A stretch of DNA of 14,617 nt from Nitrospirota bacterium (GTDB lineage Bacteria; Nitrospirota; UBA9217), in the NCBI GenBank assembly GCA_035623825.1, contig DASPSR010000035.1:1-14617 (forward strand). The letters are read 5' to 3'. Shown here piece by piece: positions 12,097 to 14,617 of this stretch. Under the pieces are notes generated by a model. It saw nothing but the letters and a program-made list of their open reading frames with translations, searched no databases and was not told where the DNA came from. Position numbers and translations under genes: made by a program. Every line of letters begins with the position of its first letter. Position 1 is the stretch's first letter.

Positions 12097-12930
12097 ATGG
12101 GAAAGCAAAGGGAAGAAAGTAGGTTGTATACCCGCCGGAGCATTCTGAGAGGATCTGCTATGCTCCTTGTTGGAGGGATCGCAGGTCGTATCAGCAGCGC
12201 CTATGGTGCACCAACGCCTGCTACAGTTGCAGCACCACCTCTGCCGTGGAAGTGGGTCAAGCTTGATCCCTTGGAGGCTGGCAGGCGCGCATATCGTGCT
12301 TATCTAAAAGAGGGCGGCTGAGGCAACGGAGCCTGGCTGGGGGTCCTCAGCCTCTTAAGAGAACAAGTCGGTTATCCCTGGACTACGTTGCCGGACTACA
12401 TGTTCGCTCATGCTGCGGCAGGGTATGGAGGACAGGGCACTCTTTGCGGTGCTCTCGGAGTTTGCAGTGCCCTTATCAATATGGTCGAATATGACAAGGA
12501 TAAGACATATGCGGTAATGGTGGACAATCTATTGGACTGGTATGCAAGGTCCTCATTCCCGACGGACCGGTTCGATGATATCTCTACGATGCCGAAACAG
12601 ATCCAGACCCAAGCGTTGTCGCCGCTCTGCCACACGTCAGTTTCGAAGTGGACCATAGCTGCCGGTGTACAGGTCACTTCCAAGGAAAAGAAGGAGCGTT
12701 GCGCTAAGGTAACGGGCGAAGTTGTTTATACGACGGTCCACTATTTCAATCTCTATACAGAAGGCAAGTGGCAACCCACAAAATGGACACCAAAAAAGGA
12801 GTTTGCCCATTGCATTGATTGCCATGGACCTGATGACATGTGGCATACCAAGGACGGCATGAACCACCAGCAGGGGCATATGGACTGTATGCTATGCCAC
12901 CAGGACCATACGAAGACGTCTGCAAAATAA
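12097..12930 (+). CDS. Tat-exported split-Soret cytochrome c-like (C-GCAxxG-C-C family) diheme protein; probable selenoprotein, 277 aa, Sec at codon 75
   Basis: ORFs 12097..12321 and 12388..12930 share one frame, and the only stop between them is TGA 12319-12321 (YLKEGG-U-GNGAWLG). RBS AAAGGAGG, Tat motif TRRSILR, motifs TLCGA, PLCHTSV and ERCA, and C-terminal CIDCH and CMLCH. Confidence 0.85.
12335..12352 (+). promoter_or_regulatory. Candidate bacterial SECIS hairpin
   Basis: GGCTGGG-GGTC-CTCAGCC forms a 7-bp stem with one G-U pair. The GGUC loop starts 20 nt after the UGA and resembles the GGUC in the E. coli fdhF SECIS loop. Confidence 0.7.
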
Positions 12931-12969
12931 AGTTATAAAGAAAAAGAAGAGGACTATAAATAAGAGAAG

Positions 12970-13006
12970 AGTGGGCTACCCCCTTTGGAGAACGGAGTAG
13001 TCCACT
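12970..13006. terminator. Hairpin downstream of the cytochrome gene; possible terminator
   Basis: AGTGGGCTAC...GTAGTCCACT inverted repeat. There is no strong U-tract on the plus strand; the minus side is followed by T-rich sequence. Confidence 0.35.
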
Positions 13007-13141
13007 TGTACTCCAGGTCATGATCTTTCGTCATCTCCACGACAGATCTTCGACAGATCGCATTGACAGCTTAATCCACAAACGAAATGGTGAATGTCGC
13101 GTGCGAAATGTGCTGTTGAATTCATCCTCTTTTAAGGAGGT

Positions 13142-13147
13142 TGTCAA
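13142..13147 (-). promoter_or_regulatory. Outward-facing -35 box of the IS circle-junction promoter
   Basis: A perfect TTGACA lies 16 nt from the inferred element end. IS110/IS1111 elements are known to form a promoter at the circle junction. Confidence 0.65.
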
Positions 13148-13177
13148 GTTTTTTTAAGAATCATCTGTTAAAGTTTT

Positions 13178-13352
13178 GTGGTTGTGGTGATGCTTCACCC
13201 TGTGTTCCCTTTACCTAACCTCTTTTGTTTTTCGAGCCTTATGCTCAACTTACTTTATTCAGGTCAAAGGGGTGGTGGAAGCAGACCAAGCTGAATCGTG
13301 CAAGCCACTATGTGCCTACGATGATGTACGGTCCTCCTTCCACCACAACCAC
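13178..13352 (-). ncRNA. Predicted bridge/seek RNA of the IS element
   Basis: Two consecutive stem/internal-loop/stem hairpins (13346-13272 and 13271-13207) sit inside a perfect 12-bp inverted repeat (13178-13189 with 13341-13352). One loop strand matches the element end over 8 nt. Confidence 0.75.
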
Positions 13353-13366
13353 GCTGTCATTTTTAT

Positions 13367-14617
13367 TTATGCCGCCAGAGAAAAACTCACCGTATCTTGA
13401 AATTCCCGCTTGTCTCTCAAAAGGGCAAAGATCACTTTGATCATCTTTATAGCAACGGCACACAAGGCCTCTTTTTTCTTGAGCAACTGGCCGAATCGGT
13501 TCTTTGTCTCCAGCCTTCGTTGGTAATACGCATGAAAGAACTTGCTGTGAACAACCGCTCTCAAACTCATGAGGTACAGGAATTTTCTTAACAGCCAGCG
13601 GCCCTTCTTCGAGATAACCTTCCTGCCTATCTTTTTTCCGGAATCCGACTCCTGAGGGTCATACCCCGCATACTTGATTATCTGTTTGGCATGGTGAAAG
13701 TACACGGGATTCCCTAGCTCACCCAAAAAGACGGCTGCCGAGAGATGTCCCATACCCGGGATGGAGAGCAGGTATCGGGAAGAGGGGAGCTGGTTCAATA
13801 AAGCCTTTAGTTCCTTTTGAATCTCCTTTAGCATCCTCTCGGTCCGTCTTACCTCTTTAAGGCATACCATCAAGCGGTAGCGGTCAGCGGCACCAATCAT
13901 CTTCAACCCGATGCTCGTTTGGGCCGCCAAATACAGGGCCGAGGCCTTCTGAACAGCCTCTGCCTTCCTCCGTGAAGCTTTTGCAATGATGTTTGCCAAG
14001 GCCGATTGCTTAAATTTCAGTACATCCTCCGGGAAGGGGCAGGTATCCAGAATCGCCCATAACCCTTTCGAGTTCATCGCCCAGAAGATCTTCTTCAGTT
14101 CGGGGAAGTAATCGTCGAGCACCGCGTGAAGCATGCTCTTTGCCCCAGTGTTGTGTTTTTGGATCTTCTCCCGCACCTTCGATAATGTCCGCAGCTGCCT
14201 GGCGACGCCATCCTCAATGATGGTATCGATGTATTTCCCTTCCCGCGTAAGATTCGTTAACGTCAAGGCATCTTTGATGTCGCTTTTCGCCGATGAGCTC
14301 TCGTTGAGCTCACGTTCATGCTTTAAAGAGGTCGTCCGTATGAACCGGACAGCATATCCCTGGTCCTTGGCAAAATAGGCGATCTTTCTCCAATAATGGC
14401 CGGTTGGCTCCAGCCCGATAAGAACGTCCTTGAACCCATGCTTCGCTTTTAGCTCTTCCGTCGTTCGCACGAACTTATCGAACCCTTCCCGGGAGTTATA
14501 CACCTTTGGAAGCCTGCCAAGGATGTTGCCGTCCTTGTTCATGAACCCAATCGCATTAAAATCTGCGCCTATGTCTATCCCCATAACCAGCGTTGTCCTC
14601 TTTATCCTTTGACGCCT
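13367..14617 (-). CDS. IS110-family DEDD transposase/recombinase, N-terminus truncated by the window edge
   Basis: The frame is open to 14617 (RRQRIKRTTLVMGIDIG). RuvC-like DEDD residues occur in GIDIG, LEPTG and KSDIKDA. The C-terminal domain has SIPGMG, YAGYDP..SDSG (catalytic Ser), ISKKG...LR and A..AVA.K. Confidence 0.95.
   Translation of the reverse strand, partial: RRQRIKRTTLVMGIDIGADFNAIGFMNKDGNILGRLPKVYNSREGFDKFVRTTEELKAKHGFKDVLIGLEPTGHYWRKIAYFAKDQGYAVRFIRTTSLKHERELNESSSAKSDIKDALTLTNLTREGKYIDTIIEDGVARQLRTLSKVREKIQKHNTGAKSMLHAVLDDYFPELKKIFWAMNSKGLWAILDTCPFPEDVLKFKQSALANIIAKASRRKAEAVQKASALYLAAQTSIGLKMIGAADRYRLMVCLKEVRRTERMLKEIQKELKALLNQLPSSRYLLSIPGMGHLSAAVFLGELGNPVYFHHAKQIIKYAGYDPQESDSGKKIGRKVISKKGRWLLRKFLYLMSLRAVVHSKFFHAYYQRRLETKNRFGQLLKKKEALCAVAIKMIKVIFALLRDKREFQDTVSFSLAA

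What the first reader, a model, noticed from the sequence alone, without database searches (positions are those of the whole stretch)
13178..13352. Bridge-RNA-like ncRNA in the IS 3' end, with readable donor and target guide loops
Seen on the minus strand. Hairpin 1 has an outer stem GTGGTGGAAG..GACC / GGTC..CTTCCACCAC, an inner stem ATCGT.. / ..ACGAT, and internal loop strands GTACATC and TCAGCTT(GG). Hairpin 2 has an outer stem CCCTTTGACCTGA / TTAGGTAAAGGG, an inner stem TTGAGC / GCTCGA, and loop strands ATAAAGTAAG and AAAACAAAAGAGG. The AAAAGAGG in loop 2 (13226-13219) is identical to the inferred element end (13133-13126). GTACATC in loop 1 pairs with the adjacent flank GATGAAT at 5 of 7 positions plus one wobble. 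Established: IS110/IS1111 recombinases use a non-coding RNA with target- and donor-binding loops, and in IS1111-type elements it lies 3' of the gene. Inference: loop 1 binds the target, loop 2 binds the donor, and the core is G or GG. The identity-matching guide is on the 3' strand of the loop, the reverse of the order I recall for IS621. This is a candidate new programmable recombinase/RNA pair.
Basis: partly seen in the sequence, partly recalled or inferred. Interest (0 to 1): 0.8.

Follow-up and report, generated by a model that had tools for sequence, protein, structure and literature searches.

The report
Bridge RNA of an IS110-family element
The structured stretch behind this transposase gene is very probably the guide ("bridge" or "seeker") RNA that tells an IS110-family jumping gene where to insert, a kind of system described in 2024, so it is a new example and not a new principle.

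Summary
It lies 3' of an IS110-family DEDD transposase gene, inside an element that is split over two contigs of the assembly and intact in an identical metagenome contig.

The loop 1 strands vary between copies and track the flanks. The loop 2 strands match the two element ends. The predicted left end was found (CTTACTATAA against the predicted CTTACTTTAT).

Three details need correcting:
- The crossover core is AG (window 13128-13127), not G or GG. An empty site of a five-copy relative carries a single AG.
- The last element base is 13129, not 13126.

The "reversed" guide order is the published IS1111-type order.

No RNA, circle junction or activity was seen, and the window copy's guide fits its own site only moderately. 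Verdict: a new member of a known kind, of moderate interest.

The parts
13367..14617 (-). Transposase gene, cut at its 5' end by the contig end. The window holds 416 codons. The full protein has 427 aa and starts MLNNDYNKQY... at an ATG 66 nt upstream of the in-window ATG at 14584.
   Evidence: PF01548 (9.8e-25) and PF02371 (2.6e-19). The 427-aa form is P0001 and stands in L024. Residues aligned with IS621 D, E, D, D and SG.
13178..13353 (-). Bridge (seek) RNA: a closing stem plus two hairpins, each with an internal loop.
   Evidence: Fold z = -4.72. Covariance-model hit of 207.8 bits. Pair counts.
13318..13329 (-). Target loop, 5' strand (right target guide) GUACAUCAUCGU. [quoted passage not shown]
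   Evidence: The six central bases differ among copies. Cognate guide/flank matches exceed shuffled pairings.
13288..13295 (-). Target loop, 3' strand UUC-AG-CUU: left target guide (UUC), core (AG), then three bases identical to the first three bases of the element. The last three look like a handshake guide.
   Evidence: Left junction ...TTTC-AG-CTTACT. Copies with UAC in this strand (L005, L026) have TAC in the flank.
13249..13259 (-). Donor loop, 5' strand AAUAAAGUAAG (right donor guide). Its reverse complement CTTACTTTATT matches the left end CTTACTATAAG at 9 of 11 positions.
   Evidence: Inverted repeat I20.
13219..13226 (-). Donor loop, 3' strand AAAAG-AG-G: left donor guide, core, and one base equal to the first base of the right flank.
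   Evidence: Identical to the right end at 13133-13126. Invariant in 24 of 25 aligned copies except for one G/A position.
13164..13175 (-). Inner inverted repeat, right arm AACTTTAACAGA. It is perfectly complementary to the left-end stretch TCTGTTAAAGTT (outside the window, L024 46-57).
   Evidence: I11: 12 nt, 100%. Conserved.
13133..13148 (-). Sub-terminal inverted repeat, right arm CTTGACAACCTCCTTA. It contains TTGACA (13147-13142), the candidate -35 of a junction promoter.
   Evidence: I7: 16 nt, 81% with L024 11-26. Spacing to TACTAT across the predicted junction.
13127..13132 (-). Right terminus AAAG (last element base 13129) and the core dinucleotide AG (13128-13127).
   Evidence: Homology with relatives ends here. 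AG stands at both junctions of every copy examined. There is a single AG in the empty site of a relative.
13117..13126 (-). Right target flank GATGAATTCA. It pairs with the guide over GATGA (5 contiguous; 7 of 12 counting the core).

Best explanation
This is the guide RNA of a site-specific insertion sequence of the IS110 family with the IS1111-type layout.

Layout of the element:
- a short left end;
- a 427-aa DEDD/Ser transposase gene;
- a 240-nt 3' non-coding region that encodes the RNA;
- sub-terminal inverted repeats.
The element is 1618 bp plus a 2-bp core, AG.

The RNA has four guide strands:
[quoted passage not shown] Its last three bases match the incoming left end.
- Hairpin 2 (donor loop), 5' strand: reverse complement CTTACTTTA, pairs with the left end.
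- Hairpin 2, 3' strand: AAAAG-AG-G pairs with the right end plus core.

Inferred mechanism:
1. The element excises as a circle with junction ...CCTTAAAAG-AG-CTTACTATAAGG...
2. This junction puts TTGACA 17 nt from TACTAT, forming a promoter that drives the transposase and, further on, the RNA.
3. A transposase tetramer holds circle and target on the two loops and exchanges strands at AG.

Seen from the opposite DNA strand, the geometry and the core (CT) are those of IS621.

Shown here: the structure, its conservation, guide-flank covariation, the element ends, and a single AG in an empty site of a relative. Inferred: that the RNA is made, the circle, the promoter and the activity.
For: Family: PF01548 and PF02371. 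The protein aligns with the IS621 and ISCro4 transposases in the PDB (E about 2e-14), with D, E, D, D and SG opposite the residues named catalytic in the IS621 paper.

Structure:
- z = -4.72.
- On 21 distinct sequences, 97.6% of cells are paired, against 32-48% when partners are slid.
- 7 pairs change on both sides, against 3.0 +/- 0.9 in shuffles (0 of 500 reach it).

Ends:
- Homology among copies stops at the AG on both sides. This holds at the left junctions (window/C10, L003, L027, L031/L029, L025, L032, L004, L026, L005, L034, L036-L039, L043, L046, C14, C23 and five in G036) and at the right junctions.
- L024 is 100% identical and joins the two contigs.
- Empty site: G108 GATAC-AG-GAGGTC, against occupied G036 GATAT-AG-[CTTACT...GAAG-AG]-GAGGTC between atpG and atpD.

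Target guide:
- Right flank: cognate 4.38 against non-cognate 3.64 matches of 8, permutation p = 0.0008 (n = 16).
- With the five G036 sites added: 89 against 65.7 matches, 0 of 20000 shuffles reach it (n = 21).
- Position +3 of the flank covaries in three Watson-Crick states: T with A (window), A with U (15 loci), G with C (G036).
- L028 and L040 pair at 8 of 8 if G-U pairs are allowed. L037 has 6 of 6 variable bases.
- Left flank: 53 against 45.1 matches, p = 0.0009 (n = 17).

Promoter: TTGACA-17 nt-TACTAT across the predicted junction in 17 of 19 copies, and 18 nt in the other 2.

Literature:
- Bridge RNAs were predicted in the right end of 93% of IS1111 elements (Durrant 2024, passages).
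- The order of top-strand and bottom-strand matches is that reported for IS1111 (Siddiquee 2024, sections 9 and 12).
Against: - No expression evidence. The one RNA run that held part of the element gave three contigs, over the transposase gene and the flank only, all with differences, so they come from relatives.
- No circle junction or excision joint appeared in four runs.
- The window copy's guide fits its own right flank at only 7 of 12 positions. It fits the flank of a right-end fragment on C45 better (9 of 12, 8 contiguous).
- Many copies match at only 3-4 of 8 positions.
- Within the window's own clade the left-flank signal is not significant (p = 0.15).
- The donor-loop assignment rests on matches alone. 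Where the donor guide varies (L036-L039, G036...AAGGUAAG), the left end does not change, so there is no donor covariation and 2-3 mismatches remain.
- The empty site belongs to a relative in another genome, not to the window's copy. For the window there is only a 70-80% look-alike on C15.
- No Rfam family matches.
- No sigma-70-like promoter was found upstream of the RNA.
Confidence: 0.85

Rival explanations
1. Seeker-RNA-only reading. Only hairpin 1 (about 80-100 nt after processing) is the working RNA and picks the target. The ends are recognised by the protein through the sub-terminal repeats and by the target halves that flank the donor. Hairpin 2 is a scaffold or protein-binding module, not a donor guide.
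For: Siddiquee 2024 recovered short 82-96-nt RNAs carrying only target matches and showed that flanking target halves matter for circle formation (sections 9 and 12). Here the donor guide varies without any matching change in the left end. Two sets of conserved inverted repeats could serve protein recognition.
Against: Both strands of loop 2 match the two ends in the same register and polarity as the loop 1 strands match the flanks, with the AG in the same place. Hairpin 2 is as conserved as hairpin 1, and both are enclosed by one closing stem. IS621 uses its second loop for the donor (Durrant 2024 passages).
Confidence: 0.1
2. A relic. The RNA gene and element are real, but this copy no longer moves. 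It sits at a site its guide fits poorly, in a genome that otherwise holds only fragments of the family.
For: The guide fits its own flank at 7 of 12 positions. The genome has one full copy plus four fragments (C39, C45, C14, C23). No joints and no RNA cover were seen.
Against: The reading frame is open, and the catalytic residues align with those of IS621. The RNA scores 207.8 bits, among the best of the family. Both ends are intact in L024. An identical copy with the same right flank occurs in several DNA runs, although three of those may be the source sample.
Confidence: 0.25
3. Not a guide RNA at all. The structure would be a 3' UTR stability or terminator element, or a DNA-level feature of the right end, and the loop matches would be chance in A-rich sequence.
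For: AAAAGAGG also occurs by chance in the transposase gene. No Rfam hit. No expression data.
Against: The stems keep pairing through compensatory changes, while the loop strands are the most variable columns and track the flanks. There is no terminator-like run on the RNA's strand.
Confidence: 0.03

Closest known systems
IS1111-group elements with a 3' seeker/bridge RNA (ISEc11, ISPa11, ISKpn4; Siddiquee et al. 2024, PMC11187229; Durrant et al. 2024, PMC11208160)
   Same: - A long non-coding region downstream of the transposase gene.
- Sub-terminal inverted repeats.
- The RNA strand complementary to the top strand lies 5' of the strand complementary to the bottom strand.
- A junction promoter is expected on circle formation.
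- Each lineage has its own target.
   Different: - The transposase has 427 aa, against 330-350 aa reported for IS1111 transposases.
- The C-terminal motif reads GY-P----SG, not GL-P----S/TG.
- There is a second, perfect 12-nt inverted repeat.
- The nearest annotated plasmid-borne relatives are at most 32.5% identical.
- No named ISfinder relative could be looked up with the tools at hand.
IS621 / ISCro4 bridge recombinases (IS110 group; Durrant 2024, Hiraizumi 2024, PDB 8wt6 and 9t56)
   Same: - A DEDD RuvC-like domain plus a Tnp domain with the catalytic Ser.
- An RNA with two internal loops, first for the target and second for the donor.
[quoted passage not shown]
- The 3' strands of the loops carry extra bases that match the other DNA (handshake-like).
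- The core AG reads CT on the other strand, which is the IS621 core.
   Different: - The RNA lies in the right end, 3' of the gene, not in the left end.
- Left and right guides are swapped within each loop. This is the same geometry seen from the opposite DNA strand.
- A long closing stem encloses both hairpins.
- Long sub-terminal repeats.
- The protein is about 100 aa longer, and phmmer aligns it with significance only over the C-terminal domain (E 1.9e-14).
ISPpu9 with its Ssr9 small RNA (Pseudomonas putida; PMC12288879, abstract seen in the search listing only)
   Same: An IS110-family element with a small RNA gene downstream of the transposase gene and site-specific insertion.
   Different: A different host phylum and a different target (REP sequences). 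No sequence comparison was made here.

Membership tests
IS110 family (DEDD transposases) | N-terminal DEDD RuvC-like domain (PF01548) and C-terminal Transposase_20 domain (PF02371) | tested here: met
   87.6 bits (cut-off 29) and 69.8 bits (cut-off 21.3).
IS110 family (DEDD transposases) | Catalytic D, E, D, D and the Ser of the SG motif | tested here: met
   GIDIG/GIDTA, LEPTG/IEATG, SDIKDA/TDTVDA and DSG/ESG stand opposite each other in the alignment with IS621. The residue names (D11, E60, D102, D105, S241) come from Hiraizumi 2024 passages. The N-terminal alignment is weak on its own (domain i-Evalue 1.7).
Bridge / seek RNA | A structured non-coding RNA in the long non-coding end, with two internal loops | tested here: met
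Bridge / seek RNA | Loop strands complementary to the two strands of the target on either side of the crossover, covarying with the flanks | tested here: met
   The right flank signal is strong. The left flank signal is significant only when the G036 clade is included.
Bridge / seek RNA | The second loop is complementary to both element ends (the donor) | tested here: inconclusive
   Matches are present: CTTACT.TA, and AAAAGAG or GAAGAG. There is no covariation, because the ends are invariant while the guide varies at 1-2 positions.
Bridge / seek RNA | The RNA is made and bound by the transposase and is required for recombination | not testable with these tools
   The only RNA run with any share gave no cover of the RNA. 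That says nothing either way.
IS1111 group | Sub-terminal inverted repeats of 7-17 bp | tested here: met
   I7: 16 nt, 81% complementary, starting 7 nt from the left end and ending 4 nt before the right terminus.
IS1111 group | The long non-coding region lies downstream of the transposase gene | tested here: met
   There are 240 nt from the stop codon (13367-13369) to the core, and about 96 nt from the left end to the start codon.
IS1111 group | Transposase of 330-350 aa related over its full length to that of IS1111; motif GL-P----S/TG | tested here: not met
   The length is 427 aa. The motif reads GYDPQESDSG. The criteria are from Siddiquee 2024, section 6. No tree with named IS1111 and IS110 members was made, so the clade is not settled.

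The most novel reading that the evidence does not exclude
This is a separate, so far uncharacterised lineage of long (about 427 aa) IS110-type recombinases, with 953 relatives in metagenomes at E <= 1e-20. It has independently adopted, or retained, the IS1111-type layout.

Its RNA is closed by one long stem. Both loops carry built-in handshake bases (CUU and G), and only about 5-6 contiguous guide pairs next to a fixed AG core seem to be needed in nature. At least ten natural guide variants exist.

One relative has retargeted to AGGAGG ribosome-binding sites and rebuilds them on insertion.

If the pair is active, it would be a compact, naturally diversified scaffold for programmable recombination, with rules that differ in detail from IS621.
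Probability: 0.3. Interest if true: 0.5.

Novelty: new member of a known kind. Interest (0 to 1): 0.32.

Why it matters
Bridge and seeker RNAs are a recent discovery of practical interest as programmable recombinases. Experimental work has centred on IS621, ISCro4 and a few IS1111 members from Proteobacteria.

This element adds a fully delimited example from uncultured Nitrospirota:
- both ends, the core and all four guide strands are placed;
- an empty site is known for a relative;
- a natural series of retargeted guides exists.

It also shows, on natural data, that the IS1111-type 'reversed' order is the IS621 geometry read from the other DNA strand, with the same CT/AG core. It does not change the picture of how these systems work.

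Tried and rejected
- Rfam scan of 12900-14617 at E <= 10: three chance-level hits only (CRISPR-DR35, SNORD57, a thermometer), all far below their gathering scores.
- I first considered CTT or TT as the core, and AAAAGAGG as part of the target. The C15 look-alike site and the G108 empty site contain neither, so I rejected both.
- I first considered C45:8736-8757 as an empty site. It lacks the left half of the target, and its upstream 30 nt look like a diverged right end, so I rejected this.
- I tested whether a repeat (GGAGTTTCC) shared by the C10 and C15 left flanks is a family of target repeats. It occurs 26 times against about 25 expected, so it is not enriched.
- Searches of 40 relatives with the window's left and right flanks gave only gene-level matches away from the junction, so no empty site was found for the window's own copy.
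- Sequencing runs: contigs of X1, X4, X5 and X24 laid on L024 gave no joints. The RNA run gave no cover of the ncRNA. Contigs cannot show starts, ends or rare forms.
- Promoter scan of 13000-13600: 0 promoter-like sites, and one terminator-like site on the opposite strand.

Full report
**What is in the window.** The minus strand carries an open frame, 14617-13367, that runs off the contig end. Its product has the two domains of IS110-family transposases: PF01548 (9.8e-25) and PF02371 (2.6e-19). The window is a whole contig (C59) of a 67-contig assembly.

Between the stop codon and about 13127 lie 240 non-coding bases.
- a closing stem, GUGGUUGUGG/CCACAACCAC;
- inside it, two hairpins, each with an outer stem, an internal loop and an inner stem.

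The MFE is -74 kcal/mol, against -53.1 +/- 4.4 for shuffles (z = -4.72, 0 of 200 shuffles as good). No Rfam family matches.

**The whole element.**
- The left end is not in the window. The 3' end of contig C10 (28027-28167) carries it and overlaps the window's end by 9 nt.
- A metagenome contig (L024) is 100% identical to both over 2448 and 141 bases and joins them. The element is therefore intact.
- It has 1618 bp plus a 2-bp core. Its transposase has 427 aa and starts at an ATG behind a GGAGA.
- The genome has this one full copy (tblastn).
- It also has four fragments of related elements: right ends on C39 and at the end of C45, and left ends on C14 and C23.

**Relatives.**
- Scans found 4 loci in genome contigs, all in MAGs labelled Nitrospirota or Thermodesulfovibrionales, and 26 loci in metagenome contigs, at 66-100% protein identity.
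- A covariance model built from 18 RNA sequences was searched in 151 genomes of the phylum. It found G000, three copies in G113 and five identical copies in the closed genome G036. That is 3 of 151 genomes with a match.
- The protein family is large: 953 proteins at E <= 1e-20, nearly all 425-428 aa. One of them is named by NCBI 'IS110 family RNA-guided transposase'.
- Annotated plasmid-borne relatives are at most 32.5% identical.

**Structure conservation.**
- RNAalifold on 18 sequences returns the same architecture with 44 pairs.
- On the model-fitted alignment of 25 matches (21 distinct), 97.6% of cells form standard pairs, against 32-48% with partners slid by 1-3 columns.
- 7 pairs change on both sides, against 3.0 +/- 0.9 in shuffles (0 of 500 reach it). 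The covariation score is 0.135, against 0.108 in shuffles.
- Two caveats apply. The alignment is fitted to the model, which favours it. The family is close-knit, so most pairs never vary.
- The most variable columns are the six bases in the 5' strand of loop 1.

**Ends and core.**
- At every left junction examined, homology begins at AG-CTTACTATAAGG, and the base before AG varies (C, T or A).
- At every right junction examined, homology ends at (A/G)AAG-AG, followed by GA(A/T)G or GAGG and then unrelated sequence.
- One G036 copy lies between atpG and atpD, as GATAT-AG-[CTTACT...GAAG-AG]-GAGGTC.
- The same intergenic region in the same-genus genome G108 reads GATAC-AG-GAGGTC, with a single AG.
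- The element therefore runs from CTT to AAG, and AG is the shared core.
- By homology, the window's last element base is 13129, the core is 13128-13127 and the right flank starts at 13126.
- For the window's own site I found only a look-alike. C15:16021-16070 is 82% like the left flank and continues ...CTTTGCAGGACGAACTC, which resembles TTTC-AG-GATGAATTC and contains neither CTT nor AAAAGAG.

**Guides.** Loop 1:
- The 5' strand is GU-NNNNNN-UCGU.
- Its reverse complement, laid from the core A onwards, matches the right flank. The constant UC pairs with the constant GA at +1 and +2.
- Position +3 covaries in three states: T with A in the window, A with U in 15 loci, G with C in G036.
- Over positions +3 to +10, cognate pairs match at 4.38 of 8, against 3.64 for non-cognate pairs (permutation p = 0.0008). 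This used 16 sites, after dropping L045 and L029 as repeats of a site and L025 for a flank of only 5 nt.
- With the five G036 sites added, the counts are 89 against 65.7 matches, reached by 0 of 20000 shuffles (n = 21).
- L028 and L040 pair at 8 of 8 with G-U allowed. L037 matches all six variable bases. L005, L032 and L038 match only 3 of 8.
- The 3' strand, (G)AUUC-AG-CUU, repeats the left flank plus core. TTC precedes AG in 8 of the 10 flanks paired with a UUC guide. The two UAC guides (L005, L026) have TAC flanks. G036 has AAAC with A-rich flanks.
- Over five positions the match is 53 against 45.1 (p = 0.0009, n = 17). Inside the window's clade alone it is not significant (p = 0.15, n = 12).
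- The CUU after the core equals the first three bases of the element.

Loop 2:
- The 5' strand is the complement of the left end: CTTACTTTA against CTTACTATA.
- The 3' strand, AAAAG-AG-G, equals the right end plus core plus the first flank base.
- Where the 5' strand differs (..AAGGUAAG in L036-L039 and G036), the left end is unchanged. The donor assignment therefore has no covariation behind it.

**Comparison with the literature.**
- In IS621 the 5' strand of each loop pairs with the bottom strand on the left, and the 3' strand pairs with the top strand on the right. The core is included in all four guides (Durrant 2024, passages). Two bases at the end of the 3' strands pair with the other DNA after strand exchange; these are the handshake guides (Hiraizumi 2024, passages).
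- Here left and right are swapped. This is the order Siddiquee 2024 report for IS1111-type seeker RNAs (abstract and sections 9 and 12).
- Read from the opposite DNA strand, the arrangement is identical to that of IS621. The core AG then reads CT, the IS621 core. This is my inference from the sequences and those passages.
- The CUU and G extensions sit where handshake guides would sit.
- Durrant 2024 predicted bridge RNAs in the right end of 93% of IS1111 elements, so the kind is known.

**Subgroup.**
- The element has the IS1111 hallmarks of layout. It has 16-nt sub-terminal repeats at 81% complementarity and, in addition, a perfect 12-nt inner repeat. It has a 3' non-coding region, and it has the IS1111 guide order.
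- Its transposase, at 427 aa, is outside the 330-350 aa given for IS1111 transposases and inside the 395-455 aa given for the IS110-proper clade. Its motif is GY-P----SG.
- Siddiquee 2024 note that some IS110-type elements have a 3' non-coding region.
- I made no tree with named members, so I file it under the IS110 family with IS1111-type layout, not as a proven IS1111 member.

**Junction promoter (inferred).** Joining ...AAG-AG to CTTACTAT puts the invariant TTGACA of the right repeat 17 nt from TACTAT in 17 of 19 copies, and 18 nt in the other 2. This is the arrangement known for ISEc11 and ISEc21 circles (Siddiquee 2024, section 12; the Prosseda 2006 title was seen in a reference list only). 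No promoter-like site precedes the RNA in the linear element.

**What is missing.**
- No RNA, circle or excised site was observed. Contigs of three DNA runs and one RNA run gave no joints, and the RNA run did not cover the ncRNA.
- Three of the DNA runs found may be the source of this DNA, so they give no independent support.
- The window copy's guide fits its own flank at 7 of 12 positions (GATGA contiguous). It fits the flank of the C45 right-end fragment at 9 of 12 (GATGATGT contiguous). This suggests that the lineage was tuned to that kind of site and that the present site is a relaxed hit, or that this copy is idle.

**Verdict.** The element is a new member of a known kind. Confidence that it is a bridge/seeker RNA is about 0.85. 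Confidence that AG is the core is about 0.8.

Noticed in passing
G000 contig C45:8736-8786 (locus L008): The contig ends in a 21-nt stretch identical to the window's right terminus (AACCTCCTTAAAAGAGGATGA). The 30 nt before it are only about 57% like the right end. The flank that follows (GATGATGT...) fits the window copy's target guide better than the window's own flank does. It is probably a remnant of an earlier copy of the same lineage.
   Followed up: partly
G000 C39:1404-1538 (L002); C14:2960-3086 (L009); C23:6194-6226 (L010): Three more fragments of related elements: a 136-nt right end at 78% identity, starting inside hairpin 2, and left ends of about 127 nt and 33 nt. Each still abuts an AG.
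   Followed up: partly
G036 loci L052, L053, L055, L057, L058: Five identical copies of a relative in a closed genome all lie at AG-GAG(G/T), that is, on AGGAGG-like Shine-Dalgarno sequences 7-14 nt before an ATG. In 3 of the 5 the ATG opens a long frame (76 aa, 257 aa, and more than 471 aa for atpD). The element's end (..GAAGAG) plus the flank rebuilds AGGAGG. In the window's clade, none of the 16 sites has a frame longer than 39 aa starting within 40 nt.
   Followed up: partly
L024 28-43 with 90-105 (left end, outside the window): A 16-nt inverted repeat (88% complementary) in the 5' leader pairs the start codon region of the transposase gene (GAAATTGCCATG) with upstream sequence. It could be a translational block for read-through transcripts.
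   Followed up: no
L024 37-51 with 1519-1533 (window 13231-13217): The 3' strand of the donor loop (AAAACAAAAGAGGTT) is 80% complementary to a stretch of the transposase leader. The RNA might also pair with the mRNA leader, or this may be chance in A/T-rich sequence.
   Followed up: no
L029 and L005 (also L030, L035): These loci share the element, about 1.4 kb of right flank and 30 nt of left flank at 97% identity, then diverge. The shared right flank contains a 146-nt fragment of a related transposase gene (about 90% identity). The short shared left piece resembles a right-end repeat. Copies seem to nest beside older remnants.
   Followed up: partly
Run X4, loose end behind L024 position 273: One contig follows the transposase gene up to position 273 and then continues with sequence like the C45 flank (GATGTTAATATGGTTTCGAAGAATCGCGAT). 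It may be a deletion derivative, or an assembly chimera at a GAT microhomology.
   Followed up: no
G000 C15:16021-16070: The 50 nt left of the insertion site on C10 have an 82% paralogue on C15. It continues into a sequence resembling the unoccupied target. The shared motif GGAGTTTCC is not enriched genome-wide (26 found, about 25 expected).
   Followed up: yes
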